Assembly (NCBI GenBank): GCA_026395055.1
Contig: JAPLZK010000002.1
Span: 56,940 to 120,939, forward strand
Length of the DNA stretch: 64,000 nucleotides
Reading direction: 5' to 3'
DNA from: Candidatus Uhrbacteria bacterium
GTDB taxonomy: Bacteria > Patescibacteriota > Patescibacteriia > UBA9934 > GWF2-40-263
A program made the translations under genes and the position numbers. The notes under the pieces are model-generated. The model saw only the letters and a program-made list of their open reading frames with translations, was not told where the DNA came from and made no database searches. Shown piece after piece: positions 4,502 through 60,773 of the stretch. Position 1 is the stretch's first letter, and every line of letters begins with the position of its first letter.

Positions 4502-4843
4502 GTGAAGAATTTTGGAGCGTTCATTGGTGCAATCGGCGGCGCATCCGCGGCGGGTCTTTGGCATCATTTCAATCCGGATACAGGATTTGGTGTGCTCTTG
4601 CTCTGTTCGATGGTCGGCGGCGGCGTCGTGGCGATCATGTGGCTTGCCCTTGTGTATCACCTGAATATTCCACAGGTTCCAAAGCCGAGTCGTGCAGAGT
4701 TGTTCGAAGCAACGCGTGTGGAACTCGAACGTCAGATTGCGGAAGCGACGGAAGCGTGCGGGTCTGAACATGCGGATGCTGTGTACGACTTGCGCAAGGA
4801 GCTCAACGCGTTCAATTACCTGAGCGATCGCCTGAGCTTTTAG
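4502..4843 (+). CDS. hypothetical membrane protein
   Basis: 113 aa, two TM helices; followed by hairpin GCCCGA..TCGGGC + CTTTTCCAGAGA. Confidence 0.4.
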   Translation: MKNFGAFIGAIGGASAAGLWHHFNPDTGFGVLLLCSMVGGGVVAIMWLALVYHLNIPQVPKPSRAELFEATRVELERQIAEATEACGSEHADAVYDLRKELNAFNYLSDRLSF

Positions 4844-4944
4844 TTCTTTTTCTCGCCCGAGTTTCTTCGGGCCTTTTCCAGAGATCCTCACCGAACGGTT
4901 CGGTGGGGTGCTCTGAGGAAGTTTTACAACAGGAGAACATCCGA
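4844..4944 (+). promoter_or_regulatory. cassette-array intergenic module E
   Basis: hairpin GCCCGAGTTTCTTCGGGC (4855-4872), CTTTTCCAGAGA 4873-4884, same CACCGAACGGTTCGGTGGGGTGCTCTG leader as module D. Confidence 0.5.
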
Positions 4945-5526
4945 ATGGATTTCAAGTATACGTTCGACGGTCAGTTGACGGGTTGGAGATGGAAACTCGT
5001 TCTCATCGCGATCTTCGCCATCTTTGTGTACGAGGCGACGGGACAATCTCCTGCGCTTGCGTTCTTGGCGGTCGTGATTCCGGGAGTCATCCTCTTCTCG
5101 CGCATCAGCTTCAAAGCGAAGAGTGATCTGGGTGTGATCGATATCCGTCCGGACACGCCGACGAAATTTCGTTTGCATCTTCCGGAGGAATTGAGCGTAT
5201 CGATTCGGGCATCTGCATTCGTGGAGCCAGATCCGCGTCAAGATCGTATCGACGAACTCGAATCCGAATTGGAGGACGCGGACAGCGAACTCGAAGATGC
5301 GGATTCGGAATGGGAGGATGCAAAAAGCGAACTCGAAGATGCAGAATCGGAAGTGCGAGATGCACAAGATGAACTGCGTCGGGTCGAGGAAGAGCGCGGT
5401 TCACATTTGGTAAATGTTTCCGAATACGCATCGAAGCGTGCGGAAGCGCAGGCAAAGAAAGACAGAATCGAAGCGGAGCTTGCGAAAGCACGCGAGCCGA
5501 ATGCCGAGAATACGACCATCACCTGA
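4945..5526 (+). CDS. hypothetical membrane protein with acidic tandem-repeat coiled coil
   Basis: SD CAGGAGAACATCCGA-ATG; TM helix then repeats ELESELEDADSELEDADSEWEDAKSELEDAESE. Confidence 0.4.
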   Translation: MDFKYTFDGQLTGWRWKLVLIAIFAIFVYEATGQSPALAFLAVVIPGVILFSRISFKAKSDLGVIDIRPDTPTKFRLHLPEELSVSIRASAFVEPDPRQDRIDELESELEDADSELEDADSEWEDAKSELEDAESEVRDAQDELRRVEEERGSHLVNVSEYASKRAEAQAKKDRIEAELAKAREPNAENTTIT

Positions 5527-57924: not shown

Positions 57925-57975
57925 ACAAAAAGACTGTGGTTTTTGCCACAGTCTTTTGATTTCCCCAATGAATCA

Positions 57976-58004
57976 TTGACATTTTGCGGATTTTATGTTA
58001 TTAT
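57976..58004 (+). promoter_or_regulatory. sigma70-like promoter of DGR target gene
   Basis: TTGACA-N17-TATTAT. Confidence 0.5.
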
Positions 58005-58131
58005 GCCGCGTCATTTGAATCTCGCACAGGGCGATTTTTGGTGACGTGCAGTGTCTACATTTGTTCGCTCCGAGCCTCGCGACGGAATCTCCGTCACAAA
58101 AGCTTGATCGGAACAAAATGCGGAGGAAGTA

Positions 58132-58791
58132 ATGGCAAAGCAGTCCTGGAGAATTAAGCTCGAGCAATGGCTCGCAGCAAATGGTGACGACGGCATGTCC
58201 GGAGTTGTGGATCATCTTGCGATTTTGACTCGCACAACGAGTCTTGTGCGCAAGCCTGGATTCAAAAAAGCTCTGGAGAAATTTTTGGACGAATGGGCCG
58301 GTCTTCCCGAGCAGAAGGAAGATCCGATCCTGCGCCGCCTGTTCGAGGACGAAACAATCACCATCGCCCCGTGCGACGGTTCTCGTTACATCGGCAAGCA
58401 GGAAAAGACGTTCGTCGCCGGCATCGATGGTGATTTCGAGCGATGGAATTTGAACAATCGCGGCAAGTCGACCGATGCGGCGAACGTTTCCGTCTTTGAA
58501 ATGATCAAGGACGCGACGTTCGCACAGATGTTCGGCTCCCTCGGATCGGATCTCGACAAGCTGTGTCTCAGCCAGGATCAGATCATCAAGTTCTGTGAGA
58601 CCAATCGGGACAAACTTCGCAAAGACGGCTACGCCACATTCTTTCTCTTCAAGGAGAATGAAAATTTCTTCGTGGCGGGCGTGGACGTGAGCTCCGATGG
58701 CCTGAGCGTCCTCGTCGGCCCGTTCGAGCACGACGGTGTCTGGTATGCGGGCTGTGTGCATCGTGTCGTCATCCCGCAACTGACCGTTTGA
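58132..58791 (+). CDS. DGR target protein with C-terminal variable region
   Basis: 219 aa; last ~40 codons (58666-58789) are the variable-region partner of the template repeat at 59098-59221. Confidence 0.6.
   Translation: MAKQSWRIKLEQWLAANGDDGMSGVVDHLAILTRTTSLVRKPGFKKALEKFLDEWAGLPEQKEDPILRRLFEDETITIAPCDGSRYIGKQEKTFVAGIDGDFERWNLNNRGKSTDAANVSVFEMIKDATFAQMFGSLGSDLDKLCLSQDQIIKFCETNRDKLRKDGYATFFLFKENENFFVAGVDVSSDGLSVLVGPFEHDGVWYAGCVHRVVIPQLTV
58666..58789 (+). repeat. DGR variable region (VR)
   Basis: 124 nt; 16 differences from TR, 15 at TR adenines. Confidence 0.65.
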
Positions 58792-59097
58792 TTCTTATCA
58801 TTCGGAAAACCCTTAGACCCTTTGTCCCTCTGACTCTTTGTGAGTTGGAGGGATTTTTTGTATAATCAATTTGCAGTCGTGCGATATTTCATGGTCAAGG
58901 CTGTGGGGTCACGATTGTTTGGAATGGTCATCCAGAATTTTGTCGGCTACGGCTTGCAAAAGTGCGGTGATGATTCTGACAAACAAAAACTTTTCAGTTG
59001 GTGCGATGTGCTTGCGGACTTCTTCGTCCCAAATAAAATTCAGCTAGATTTCTCGTGCACGATAAATCGGCAGTGATCTTGATGGCTCATCGTACAA

Positions 59098-59221
59098 TTC
59101 TTCGTGGCGAACGTGAACGTGAACTCGGATGGCCTGAACGTCAACGTCAACCCGTTCGAGAACGACAATGTCTGGAATGCGGACTGTGTGCATCGTGTCG
59201 TCATCCCGAAACTGACCGTTT
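59098..59221 (+). repeat. DGR template repeat (TR)
   Basis: non-coding copy rich in AAC codons (AACGTGAACGTGAAC...AACGTCAACGTCAAC...AACGACAAT). Confidence 0.65.
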
Positions 59222-59599
59222 CTCCTCCGTTTGAACGGGAGGAGTTTTCTTTTCCACGTCTTTTTTCCATCCGCCAAGCATTCTTCCAATTTCATCTAAA
59301 TCAAGGGAAAGTGCCGTATATTTATCGTTCGGGAGACATTTGTTTTCCCACGCGATTTGTAAAAAGAATTTCACGCCATCCAGTTTTGAAATGCAGACGT
59401 TGAGCCGATTCATCTTTTGTTCGCCGGAAAGATATTGCGAAACAAAGATTTGTTCGAGCATTTCCAGAAAGTATCCTTCAATTTTTCCTCCGAGATTATG
59501 GCGCGATGTTTTTGGAAAATCTGCAAGTAGTTTAAACCAAACAGCATAAGCGCTCCTCGTCTTTGTCATAACCGAAGGAGTTCGGGGGGGGGGATCCAA
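59201..59599 (-). CDS. Avd-like four-helix-bundle accessory protein (opposite strand; start uncertain)
   Basis: AYAVWFKLLADFPK...LDGVKFFLQIAWENKCLPNDKYTALSLDLDEIGRMLGG resembles the four-helix-bundle/Avd family; overlaps TR 3' end. Confidence 0.4.
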   Translation of the reverse strand: MDPPPRTPSVMTKTRSAYAVWFKLLADFPKTSRHNLGGKIEGYFLEMLEQIFVSQYLSGEQKMNRLNVCISKLDGVKFFLQIAWENKCLPNDKYTALSLDLDEIGRMLGGWKKDVEKKTPPVQTEEKRSVSG

Positions 59600-59623
59600 T
59601 CATAGACATTCAATGGTGAAAAT

Positions 59624-60634
59624 ATGAAAAAATTTAAACGCGCTTATCAAGATATCATAACGGTCGATAATTTACTTCACGCATGGGAACAATTTTTACC
59701 GGGCAAGAAGAAGCGGACGGATGTTATTGAATTTCAAAATCGTCTCATGAACAATTTGTTTGATCTGCATCGAGCGCTCGTCGAGAAGACGTTTATACAC
59801 GGAGCCTATCATGCGTTTAATATCTCGGATCCAAAGCCAAGAAATATTCACAAGGCAACTGTTCGTGATCGATTGCTTCATCACCTCATTCATTCAGAGC
59901 TGTATGGATATTTCGATCAGAAGTTTATTTACGATTCTTATTCATGCCGAATCGAGAAGGGGACACATAGGGCCATGAATCGGTTTAGAGAGTTTGGCAG
60001 AATCGTTTCGAAAAATAATACGCGTACTTGTTGGGTTTTGAAATGCGATATTCGAAAATTTTTTGCAAATATTGATCACAACATCTTGAAAAGTATTTTG
60101 GGTAAGCATATCGACGATAAAGACGTGTTGAATTTGCTTAATCATCTTGTCGATAGTTTTTCGACTCCGGGGAAGAAAGATGTCGGACTTCCACTCGGCA
60201 ACCTAACCTCACAGCTTCTGGTGAACATTTACATGAATGAGTTTGATCAGTTTATGAAACGGACGATCAAGACCGAGTATTACATGCGATATGCAGATGA
60301 TTTTGTGATCTTGCACGAGAGTCGAGAGTATTTGAGCGAGATGATTTCAAATATCTCAGAATTCCTTGAGTCACATTTGAAATTATCTTTGCATCCGGAC
60401 AAATTGTTTCTAGAAACGCTCGTCTCCGGAGTTGATTTCCTTGGCTGGGTCCATTTTCCCCACCACCGAGTCTTACGAACAGCCACAAAGAGACGGATGT
60501 TAAGAAATGTTCGGAATTCAGAAGATTTGGCCACGTTTTACTCTTATGAGGGTATGCTAGCTCATGGGAATGGATTCAAATTGATTCGGAAGGCTGAATC
60601 ATCATTTTCAAAGGTTTTTGCCACAGTCTTTTGA
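59624..60634 (+). CDS. DGR reverse transcriptase
   Basis: RT motifs incl. YADDFVIL and DGR-diagnostic LPLGNLTSQ (GxxxSQ); 336 aa without maturase/En domains. Confidence 0.75.
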   Translation: MKKFKRAYQDIITVDNLLHAWEQFLPGKKKRTDVIEFQNRLMNNLFDLHRALVEKTFIHGAYHAFNISDPKPRNIHKATVRDRLLHHLIHSELYGYFDQKFIYDSYSCRIEKGTHRAMNRFREFGRIVSKNNTRTCWVLKCDIRKFFANIDHNILKSILGKHIDDKDVLNLLNHLVDSFSTPGKKDVGLPLGNLTSQLLVNIYMNEFDQFMKRTIKTEYYMRYADDFVILHESREYLSEMISNISEFLESHLKLSLHPDKLFLETLVSGVDFLGWVHFPHHRVLRTATKRRMLRNVRNSEDLATFYSYEGMLAHGNGFKLIRKAESSFSKVFATVF

Positions 60635-60773
60635 TTTCTTGACGCGACCCTCAAAAAATGGTATAAATGATGTAGAAAGTAGGAAGTAGAAAGCATAAAG
60701 GGATTCGATAATCTCTTTTTTCTTCCCACTTCCCACCTTTCTACTTTCTACTCACCCCTTTCTCCTTACTCCT

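What the first reader, a model, noticed from the sequence alone, without database searches (positions are those of the whole stretch)
57976..60634. Complete diversity-generating retroelement (target VR, TR, Avd-like gene, RT) with adenine-specific VR/TR divergence
The last 124 nt of the 219-aa target gene (VR, 58666-58789) match a non-coding copy 432 nt downstream (TR, 59098-59221) with 16 differences, 15 of them at positions where TR has adenine. The TR is rich in AAC codons: AACGTGAACGTGAACTCG...AACGTCAACGTCAAC...AACGACAAT. The downstream 336-aa reverse transcriptase carries YADD and the GxxxSQ motif (LPLGNLTSQ), which distinguishes DGR RTs from group-II-intron RTs. Between TR and RT, on the opposite strand, lies a 4-helix-bundle Avd-like ORF, an unusual orientation. 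A sigma70-like promoter (TTGACA-N17-TATTAT) precedes the target gene. This is a clear, probably active, mutagenic-homing system diversifying the C-terminal ligand-binding region of a small protein.
Basis: partly seen in the sequence, partly recalled or inferred. Interest (0 to 1): 0.75.

Follow-up and report, generated by a model that had tools for sequence, protein, structure and literature searches.

The report
CPR-type diversity-generating retroelement, intact
This is an intact diversity-generating retroelement of the kind already known from candidate-phyla-radiation bacteria, which rewrites the tip of one small protein; comparing about 65 related loci also revealed conserved RNA and DNA signals and an unstable G-run that I did not find described in the literature I could search.

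Summary
VR 58666-58789 and TR 59098-59221 are 124 nt with 16 mismatches, 15 at TR adenines (p = 7e-11). The flanking ORFs are a bAvd-family protein and a reverse transcriptase whose best solved relative is a 328-aa RT (8ub7, probably Bordetella bRT).

The window comes from a Candidatus Uhrbacteria genome. The layout target-VR / about 300-nt spacer / TR / avd on the opposite strand / RT recurs in about 65 related loci. It is the published "B3" architecture, reported for 90% of CPR DGRs, so the inverted avd is normal here.

No variant copy of this element was found. Two assemblies of its closest relative, at the same gyrA-rpmF site, differ over 7.6 kb only by 17 VR substitutions, all at TR adenines, and one base in the avd-RT poly-G run.

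Clade-wide features I did not find in Rfam or the searchable literature:
- a covarying structured RNA just 5' of TR
- a terminator-like hairpin just 3' of TR
- an 8-nt-periodic CTTWG array after every VR
- a simple-sequence repeat between avd and RT in 70 of 76 loci
- a 26-nt direct repeat bracketing the cassette

Verdict: a new member of a known kind, with some possibly undescribed cis-elements.

The parts
57938..57963 (+). Left copy of the perfect 26-nt direct repeat GGTTTTTGCCACAGTCTTTTGATTTC. It is the loop and 3' arm of the gyrA terminator hairpin (arms 57928-57939 and 57946-57957) plus its tail.
   Evidence: the repeat finder D3; sequence
57976..58004 (+). Sigma-70-like promoter of the target gene (TTGACA-17-TATTAT), followed by a 127-nt 5' UTR.
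   Evidence: 11 of 12 matches. Conserved in L084. The gyrA-terminator-to-ATG segment is 89% identical to L084, the best-conserved segment of the locus.
58132..58791 (+). Target gene, 219 aa. It has a variable helical N-terminus and a conserved domain of about 160 aa with no Pfam or NCBIfam match. The family has 2,480 clusters at 50% identity.
58666..58789 (+). Variable repeat (VR), codons 179-219. The recoded residues are 183, 185, 187, 192, 194, 196, 200, 202, 205, 207 and the boundary residue 216.
   Evidence: Residues 183/185/187 and 192/194/196 alternate on the two strands of a predicted beta hairpin.
58812..58840 (+). Four units at an exact 8-nt period: CTTAG (58812), CTTTG (58820), CTCTG (58828), CTTTG (58836). 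This VR-flank array is specific to this DGR clade.
   Evidence: CTT[ATG]G occurs 3.1 times per 110 nt after VR against 0.36 in the background, with the spacing peak at 8 nt. Strict triple arrays occur 31 times within 160 nt after a VR and 0 times elsewhere in 1.41 Mb. The arrays also follow remote and inverted VRs.
58824..58860 (+). Terminator-like hairpin and T-run at the end of the target gene. It overlaps the last two array units.
58838..58866 (+). Promoter-like site TTGTGA-17-TATAAT, the inferred start of the TR RNA.
   Evidence: 10 of 12 matches. A T-run followed by a TATAAT-like box is found at the equivalent place in most of 63 loci.
58888..59095 (+). Structured non-coding leader directly 5' of TR. 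Helices: 58888-58895/58900-58907; 58929-58947/58952-58969; 59001-59012/59084-59095 (closes 2 nt before TR); 59016-59019/59026-59029; 59043-59047/59067-59071.
   Evidence: In 62 loci, 36 of 41 pairs carry compensatory changes. 92.3% of cells are paired against 40-51% when partners are slid; the covariation score is 0.79 against 0.12-0.22; 0 of 500 shuffles reach the observed score. No conserved ORF lies in the spacer. No Rfam match. Column-to-coordinate map.
59098..59221 (+). Template repeat (TR): 28 adenines and 9 AAY codons.
59208..59253 (+). 3' end of the TR RNA: a small hairpin GAAAC/GTTTC (59208-59222), then the hairpin CTCCTCC/GGAGGAG (59222-59244), then TTTTCTTTT (59245-59253).
   Evidence: A terminator-like hairpin follows TR in 56 of 67 loci against 32 of 1,300 control windows, with 54 different arm sequences. 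The small hairpin is found at 15 of 67 TR ends, at 1 VR end and in 7 of 1,340 random windows.
59201..59569 (-). avd (122 aa from the ATG at 59569). It is divergent from the RT, and its last 21 nt overlap the TR 3' end on the other strand.
   Evidence: Pfam bAvd 49.2 bits, above the cut-off of 40. NCBIfam DGR Avd 60.8 bits, below the cut-off of 80. The orientation is conserved in all loci.
59584..59593 (.). G10 homopolymer in the 54-nt avd-RT intergenic region, a candidate hypermutable switch.
   Evidence: 70 of 76 loci carry a repeat here: G6-G13 in 50 and (GA)n or (GT)n in 20. Natural length polymorphism G10/G11 and G8/G9.
59624..60634 (+). DGR reverse transcriptase, 336 aa. The conserved core ends near residue 320, and the last codons and the stop lie in the right repeat copy.
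60613..60638 (+). Right copy of the 26-nt direct repeat. It lacks the 5' hairpin arm and is followed directly by the rpmF promoter (TTGACG...).

Best explanation
An intact chromosomal DGR of the CPR lineage (Roux clade 2, Wu architecture B3) lies between gyrA and rpmF of a Candidatus Uhrbacteria genome.

Shown here:
- A VR/TR pair with adenine-specific divergence.
- A DGR-type RT and a divergently encoded Avd.
- A target whose VR recodes about 10 codons, 9 of them AAY. Six of these codons alternate along a predicted beta hairpin, in a domain whose best structural matches are C-type-lectin folds at weak scores.
- Ongoing A-to-N diversification in the orthologous element.

Inferred from conservation:
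- TR is made as a separate non-coding RNA of about 380 nt. It would start at a promoter just after the target's terminator (-10 box at 58861-58866). It would consist of a structured leader of about 210 nt, the TR, and a terminator-like hairpin with a U-tract. It cannot be co-transcribed in sense with avd or the RT.
- RT and Avd bind this RNA. I propose that the 5' leader takes the role that the 3' spacer RNA plays in Bordetella phage BPP-1.
- They copy TR with misincorporation opposite adenines, and the cDNA replaces VR.
- The recipient is told apart from the donor by a fixed C-for-A difference at 58777 and by the 8-nt-periodic CTTWG array 22 nt after VR.
- The G10 run between avd and RT changes length readily. 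It probably switches or tunes expression of the mutagenesis machinery.
For: - VR/TR statistics.
- Avd and RT domains.
- RT motifs invariant in 25 relatives.
- The best solved relative is the full-length 328-aa RT 8ub7 (E 1e-35), against 1e-20 for group II intron RTs.
- The same gene order with adenine-specific VR/TR pairs in about 65 loci.
- Published B3 architecture and CPR clade 2.
- Activity: L084 and L003 differ only at 17 VR positions, all TR adenines, plus one poly-G indel in 7,595 nt. In a second population the TR is identical in 7 contigs while VR differs at 20 sites, all TR adenines.
- Leader covariation.
- Hairpin after TR.
- Promoter-like sites.
- VR-flank array.
- Boundary motif.
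- Simple-sequence repeat.
Against: - No variant VR of this exact element was found; the two Logan contigs are identical to the window.
- No transcript data exist, so the ends of the TR RNA are predictions. The hairpin could be a structural element and not a terminator.
- Folding the single sequence is not significant (z -1.3 and -1.7). The structure rests on covariation alone.
- NCBIfam's Avd model scores below its cut-off.
- In the window the G10 run is not flanked by a recognisable -10/-35 pair. A -10-like box abuts the run in only 16 of 50 poly-G loci, so how tract length would act is unknown.
- Homopolymer length calls from assemblies can be wrong.
Confidence: 0.93

Rival explanations
1. 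A decayed or silenced DGR relic. The VR/TR differences record past activity, but the element no longer diversifies its target.
For: Only identical copies of this exact locus were recovered. There is one non-adenine mismatch, at 58695. The RT's C-terminal codons and stop are supplied by flanking repeat sequence. The G10 tract could currently be in an 'off' length.
Against: All ORFs are intact, and every invariant RT residue is present. The leader helices, the hairpin after TR and the VR-flank array are all intact. The orthologue at the same site is diversifying now. The RT core conserved among relatives ends near residue 320, before the repeat.
Confidence: 0.06
2. Not a DGR: a group II intron or retron-type RT that happens to sit next to an unrelated imperfect repeat.
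For: NCBI names the protein 'reverse transcriptase/maturase family'. The best NCBIfam match is the group II RT model, at 141 bits against a cut-off of 300.
Against: The adenine bias has p = 7e-11. An Avd gene is present. The best solved relative is 8ub7 at full length, 15 orders of magnitude better than intron RTs. No maturase or endonuclease domain is found and there is no intron RNA match in Rfam. The whole arrangement recurs in about 65 loci.
Confidence: 0.01
3. The poly-G or (GA)n tract is a fixed sequence signal, for example a purine-rich ribosome-binding or RNA element for RT or avd. On this view it is not a mutational switch, and the observed length differences are assembly noise.
For: Both common forms are purine-rich on the RT strand. 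In (GA)n loci the tract lies close to the RT start. Several contigs simply break at the tract, which is typical of sequencing trouble. One population showed no variation, G10 in all contigs.
Against: Three different repeat types, G(n), (GA)n and (GT)n, occupy the same place, and lengths range from G6 to G13 and from 5 to 21 dinucleotide units. Repetitiveness, and not sequence, is what is conserved. In two populations the tract indel is the only indel in 1.5-7.6 kb, and it tracks VR-defined lineages (G9 with one VR allele, G8 with another) instead of scattering at random.
Confidence: 0.35

Closest known systems
CPR / Patescibacteria DGRs: architecture B3, TR-(avd)-RT, of Wu et al. 2018 (PMC5758913); DGR clade 2 of Roux et al. 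2021 (PMC8144416)
   Same: Same host lineage and a cellular, not phage, context. The gene order is target-TR-(avd)-RT. The target is small and has no recognisable domain or membrane segment. TR is rich in AAY codons and the mismatches are adenine-specific.
   Different: Nothing differs at the level of architecture. The structured 5' leader, the hairpin after TR, the CTTWG array and the avd-RT repeat are not mentioned in the papers I could read. Paul et al. 2017, the main CPR DGR paper, was not available to me.
Bordetella phage BPP-1 DGR (mtd-avd-TR-brt)
   Same: It has an RT-Avd pair, adenine mutagenesis of a TR-derived cDNA, a VR at the 3' end of the target, a non-variable 3' boundary that differs slightly between VR and TR (IMH/IMH*), and a C-type-lectin-type variable domain. 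The RT's best solved match is 8ub7; that this entry is bRT is from my memory.
   Different: In BPP-1, avd is co-oriented and lies upstream of TR, and the functional RNA element (Sp, Rfam RT-10 motif; PMC5737381) lies between TR and brt, that is 3' of TR. Here avd is inverted, the conserved structured RNA lies 5' of TR, and the 3' side is a terminator-like hairpin. BPP-1 marks its VR with a GC-rich hairpin/cruciform; here an 8-nt-periodic CTTWG array follows VR. The element is chromosomal, and the target is not a phage tail fibre.
Phase-variable contingency loci controlled by simple-sequence repeats in promoter regions (for example the H. influenzae hifA/hifB divergent promoters and the Neisseria porA and opc promoters; from my own knowledge)
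   Same: A homopolymer or dinucleotide repeat sits in a short region between divergent genes, and its length is polymorphic among otherwise identical genomes.
   Different: No expression data exist. In the window the tract is not in an obvious -35/-10 spacer. The genes under control would be a mutagenesis machine and not a surface antigen.

Membership tests
Diversity-generating retroelement (DGR) | A near-identical TR/VR pair whose differences fall at TR adenines | tested here: met
   15 of 16 mismatches are at TR adenines; p = 6.7e-11
Diversity-generating retroelement (DGR) | RT of the DGR clade: YxDD plus the (I/L)GxxxSQ motif, and closer to bRT than to intron or retron RTs | tested here: met
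   YADD and LPLGNLTSQ are invariant in 25 relatives. The top PDB hit is 8ub7 (E 1e-35, full length), against 4e-20 or weaker for retron and group II RTs. That 8ub7 is bRT rests on my memory (one search found no paper).
Diversity-generating retroelement (DGR) | VR lies within, usually at the 3' end of, a protein-coding target; TR lies outside it | tested here: met
   VR is codons 179-219 of the 219-aa ORF. TR lies in a spacer with no conserved ORF; only its last 21 nt overlap the avd 3' end on the other strand.
Diversity-generating retroelement (DGR) | Accessory variability determinant (Avd) | tested here: met
   Pfam bAvd 49.2 bits, above the cut-off of 40. NCBIfam Avd equivalog 60.8 bits, below the cut-off of 80.
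Diversity-generating retroelement (DGR) | IMH/IMH*-type invariant 3' boundary that distinguishes VR from TR | tested here: inconclusive
   The last 38 nt are identical except for the fixed A/C at 58777. The TR GAAAS / VR GCAAS difference recurs across loci. Its function is untested.
Diversity-generating retroelement (DGR) | Observed A-to-N diversification of VR among otherwise identical genomes | tested here: inconclusive
   This element: only identical copies were found. The orthologue at the same locus: 17 of 17 differences are in VR at TR adenines. A sister element: 20 of 20.
Diversity-generating retroelement (DGR) | Variable domain with a C-type-lectin fold | tested here: inconclusive
CPR DGR, architecture B3 / clade 2 | Order TR-(avd)-RT with avd on the opposite strand, in a Patescibacteria host | tested here: met
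   (Candidatus Uhrbacteria), and Wu et al.
Mobile element with target-site duplication | Flanking direct repeats, an empty site in relatives, and a mobility gene | tested here: inconclusive
   Direct repeats are present here (26 nt), in the relative L084 (41 nt) and in L004, L016 and L081. No empty site was found. No integrase or transposase is present. Nucleotide identity to the relative is similar inside and outside the cassette.

The most novel reading that the evidence does not exclude
CPR-type DGRs work with a re-arranged and additionally regulated machinery that has not been described. On this reading:
- The template is an autonomous small RNA whose protein-binding and priming scaffold is a covarying domain of about 210 nt on the 5' side of TR, with the RNA ending at a terminator hairpin.
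- Recipient VRs are marked by an 8-nt-periodic CTTWG array in place of a cruciform.
- The element is itself a contingency locus. A hypermutable G(n) or (GA)n tract between avd and RT switches hypermutation on and off in subpopulations.
Probability: 0.35. Interest if true: 0.75.

Novelty: new member of a known kind. Interest (0 to 1): 0.5.

Why it matters
The locus itself adds one more CPR DGR to thousands. Its value lies in what the comparison exposed.

No CPR DGR has been studied biochemically, and everything known about DGR RNA comes from one phage. This clade has three conserved signals that give direct, testable handles on how template RNA is recognised, how donor and recipient are told apart, and where cDNA is primed in the most DGR-rich lineage known:
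- a structured RNA on the other side of the template
- a defined RNA 3' end
- a VR-specific repeat array

An unstable repeat between avd and RT is one of only two kinds of difference between otherwise identical genomes. If it gates expression, targeted hypermutation would itself be stochastically switched.

The target family (about 2,500 clusters at 50% identity, no annotation) is a large uncharacterised group of probable ligand-binding proteins in organisms that live attached to other cells.

Tried and rejected
- **Exact-sequence look-ups.** The RT and L32 returned nothing. The target look-up returned only two identical Logan contigs, so there is no population evidence for this exact element.
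- **Empty site.** A metagenome scan for the 26-nt repeat found only the related species, which carries the DGR at the same site. Mobility therefore remains unproven. Segment identities show no sign of recent transfer.
- **Rfam.** The relaxed-threshold scan gave only weak chance hits: BSnc120 on the gyrA terminator and miRNA models on the hairpin upstream of rpmF.
- **Single-sequence folding.** The target 5' UTR and the TR RNA are not significant (z -1.3 and -1.7).
- **Promoter-spacer model for the G tract.** It fits 16 of 50 loci but not the window.
- **Other populations.** One (RT P0071) had no tract or VR variation. Another (RT P0086) has no repeat at all and also showed no VR variation.
- **Small hairpin at the TR boundary.** The GAAAS/STTTY hairpin is present in only 15 of 67 loci.
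- **Literature.** Paul et al. 2017 could not be read. A search for the PDB code 8UB7 found no paper.
- **Viral collection.** Only about six close relatives were found, so a phage origin is not supported.
Full report
**Observation.** The 124-nt repeat pair is real. VR 58666-58789 and TR 59098-59221 align without gaps, with 16 mismatches. Fifteen are at TR adenines. The sixteenth, at 58695, is a synonymous G/C difference. TR has 28 A in 124 nt, so this bias has p = 6.7e-11. The homology ends at the target's stop codon, and no other TR-like sequence exists in the window. VR is codons 179-219 of the 219-aa ORF 58132-58791. TR in the same frame reads FFVANVNVNSDGLNVNVNPFENDNVWNADCVHRVVIPKLTV, with nine AAY codons. 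Eleven codons differ at the amino-acid level. The promoter TTGACA-17-TATTAT at 57976-58004 matches 11 of 12 positions and is conserved in the nearest relative.

**Proteins.**
- The minus-strand ORF (59201-59569 from the ATG) matches Pfam bAvd above its cut-off. It matches NCBIfam's DGR Avd model below its cut-off.
- The 336-aa ORF 59624-60634 is an RT (RVT_1). Its best solved relative is the 328-aa chain 8ub7, at E 1e-35 over the full length. Retron and group II intron RTs score 4e-20 or weaker. I believe 8ub7 is Bordetella bRT, but that is from memory (one search found no paper).
- YADD and LPLGNLTSQ are invariant in 25 relatives.
- The target has no Pfam or NCBIfam match.

**Source and family.** Identical proteins are on record from a Candidatus Uhrbacteria MAG, on a 339-kb contig. 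A scan of one genome per species with an RT alignment found more than 597 relatives, and I kept the best 80 loci. Nearly all are labelled as Patescibacteria, apart from a few bins with other phylum labels.
- In every locus with upstream DNA, an avd homologue lies on the opposite strand directly upstream of the RT.
- In about 65 loci, a TR lies just beyond the avd 3' end. In most, the VR lies 430-500 nt further upstream on the RT strand, with mismatches almost entirely at TR adenines.
- A few loci have inverted, downstream or second VRs.

[quoted passage not shown] 2018, PMC5758913). It is also DGR clade 2 of Roux et al. 2021 (PMC8144416).

**Target.** A profile search finds 2,480 clusters at 50% identity (979 at E no higher than 1e-30). 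Most are proteins of 200-230 aa with the conserved domain of about 160 aa at the C-terminus, and a few carry two or three copies.
- The N-terminal 60 residues or so are variable and helical; the rest is well conserved.
- AlphaFold2 with a 40-sequence alignment gives pLDDT 84 overall and above 90 for residues 71-200.
- Variable residues 183/185/187 and 192/194/196 alternate along the two strands of a beta hairpin (E178-187, E190-197), so they should form one face.
- Full use of all TR adenines would allow up to about 1e16 protein variants.

**Activity.** Only identical copies of this exact locus were found. The closest relative has GyrA 98%, Avd 93%, RT 77% and target 75% identical at the amino-acid level, and it has the same gyrA-DGR-rpmF synteny. 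It is available as two independent assemblies, L084 and L003. Over 7,595 nt they differ by 17 substitutions, all in VR and all at TR adenines, and by one indel in the poly-G run between avd and RT. A second element has an RT 68% identical and a target of the same family. It shows an identical TR in seven contigs, while VR differs between the five contigs that cover it at 20 positions, all TR adenines. The clade is therefore active in nature, and the window's element has every conserved part intact.

**The template RNA (inferred).**
- The VR-to-TR spacer is 257-416 nt in most loci (one outlier of 694 nt, median 332). It has no conserved ORF but does have conserved blocks.
- An unbiased MAFFT alignment of the 240 nt upstream of TR from 62 loci gives an RNAalifold structure of 41 pairs, 36 of them with compensatory changes.
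- Counted directly, 92.3% of cells pair, against 40-51% when partners are slid by 1-3 columns. The covariation score is 0.79 against 0.12-0.22, and no shuffle in 500 reaches it.
- The window coordinates of the helices are given under parts. A 12-bp helix closes two bases before TR.
- A T-run followed by a TATAAT-like box precedes the leader in most loci. In the window it is TTGTGA-17-TATAAT at 58838-58866.
- Directly after TR, 56 of 67 loci have a GC-rich hairpin followed by a T-tract, against 2.5% of control windows. The 54 different arm sequences show that the structure, not the sequence, is conserved. In the window this is 59222-59244 plus TTTTCTTTT.
- Because avd is antisense and the RT lies beyond it, TR cannot be co-transcribed in sense with either gene.

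The simplest reading is an autonomous RNA of about 380 nt. In BPP-1 the structured element (Sp, the RT-10 motif) lies 3' of TR (PMC5737381). Here it lies 5'. Rfam has no match.

**Recipient marks.**
- TR ends ...CCGAAAC where VR has ...CCGCAAC. The same A/C difference recurs across loci with different targets, and Gln216 is nearly invariant in the family. So 58777 is a fixed donor/recipient difference.
- Twenty-two bases after VR lie four units at an exact 8-nt period, CTTAG/CTTTG/CTCTG/CTTTG (58812-58840).
- Across loci, CTT[ATG]G is 8.6-fold enriched in the 110 nt after VR, with spacing peaks at 8 and 16 nt.
- Strict triple arrays occur 31 times within 160 nt after a VR and never elsewhere in 1.41 Mb. 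They also follow remote and inverted VRs.
- I propose that the array is the target-recognition element. That is an inference only.

**The repeat between avd and RT.** The divergent intergenic region, mostly 24-90 nt long, holds a simple repeat in 70 of 76 loci. It is G6-G13 in 50 loci (G10 here, 59584-59593) and (GA)n or (GT)n of 5-21 units in 20. What is conserved is repetitiveness, not sequence. Tract length is the only indel between otherwise identical or near-identical genomes in two populations: G10/G11 and G8/G9, where it tracks VR-defined lineages. A third population was uniform. A -10-like box abuts the tract in 16 of 50 poly-G loci, but not in the window. I did not find this feature in the library. 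A contingency switch on the mutagenesis genes is the most interesting reading. A fixed purine-rich signal combined with assembly noise is the rival reading.

**Cassette borders.** A perfect 26-nt direct repeat (57938-57963 and 60613-60638) brackets the whole cassette.
- The left copy is part of the gyrA terminator.
- The right copy lacks the 5' arm, supplies the RT's last codons and stop, and abuts the rpmF promoter.
- In the relative, a 41-nt repeat starting at the stop codon brackets the DGR plus an AbrB-like/RelE-like pair (my reading of the ORFs).
- Comparable repeats flank the cassette in L004 (81 nt, 90% identical), L016 (41 nt, 90%) and L081 (37 nt), with unrelated sequences. That makes 4 of 56 loci examined.
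- This looks like a duplication made at insertion. However, no empty site was found, no mobility gene is present, and identity to the relative is similar inside and outside the cassette. The event, if real, is old.

**Verdict.** The finding is correct, and the element is a typical, intact and probably active CPR DGR: a new member of a known kind. The clade-wide cis-elements found on the way are statistically solid, but their functions are untested, and I cannot be sure they are unpublished.

Noticed in passing
57938-57963 and 60613-60638: A perfect 26-nt direct repeat brackets the entire DGR cassette (spacing 2,675 nt). The left copy is part of the gyrA terminator, and the right copy provides the RT stop codon. 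Unrelated flanking repeats of 37-81 nt bracket the cassette in L004, L016 and L081. This looks like a target-site duplication, but no empty site was found.
   Followed up: partly
59584-59593; equivalent position in 70 of 76 related loci: G10 run between the divergent avd and RT genes. Relatives have G6-G13, (GA)n or (GT)n at the same place. Tract length is the only indel between otherwise identical or near-identical genomes in two populations (G10/G11 and G8/G9).
   Followed up: partly
58812-58840; after every VR in related loci: An 8-nt-periodic array of CTTAG/CTTTG units follows VR. Strict triple arrays were found only downstream of VRs (31 against 0 in 1.41 Mb), including remote and inverted VRs. 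Function unknown.
   Followed up: partly
58888-59095: A covarying structured RNA domain of about 210 nt lies directly 5' of TR (41 pairs, 36 with compensatory changes in 62 loci). It has no Rfam match. Two of its hairpins share a GGYTACGGCTT-like apex.
   Followed up: yes
L084 (reverse complement) 4620-5105 and L083 590-1075: In the nearest relative, two small ORFs lie between the RT and the second terminator copy. I read them as an AbrB/SpoVT-like antitoxin and a RelE/ParE-like toxin. They are absent from the window. I named them from the sequence only and did not search them.
   Followed up: no
60674-60763: A long imperfect inverted repeat (28-nt arms, 79% complementary; inner 16-nt arms 94%) lies between the rpmF promoter and the rpmF start codon. 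It may be a leader structure for L32. It gave only weak chance hits to miRNA models in Rfam.
   Followed up: no
58005-58131: The 127-nt 5' UTR of the target lies in the best-conserved segment of the locus against the relative (89% identity, compared with 85% for gyrA). Single-sequence folding is not significant (z -1.3). I did not test it for covariation because too few close relatives were available.
   Followed up: partly
L098, L099, L101, L102 (contig ends): Several metagenome contigs that carry an identical RT begin inside or at the poly-G tract. Assemblies therefore tend to break there, which fits either length heterogeneity or sequencing difficulty.
   Followed up: no
59201-59221: The avd ORF runs 18 codons past its Pfam domain, through the hairpin that follows TR, and ends inside the TR 3' end on the opposite strand. 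tblastn matches extend to the same tail in several relatives (L006, L013, L023, L027, L054).
   Followed up: partly
Target family (P0241, P0242, P0127): Some family members are 380-560 aa long and carry two or three tandem copies of the conserved domain of about 160 aa.
   Followed up: no
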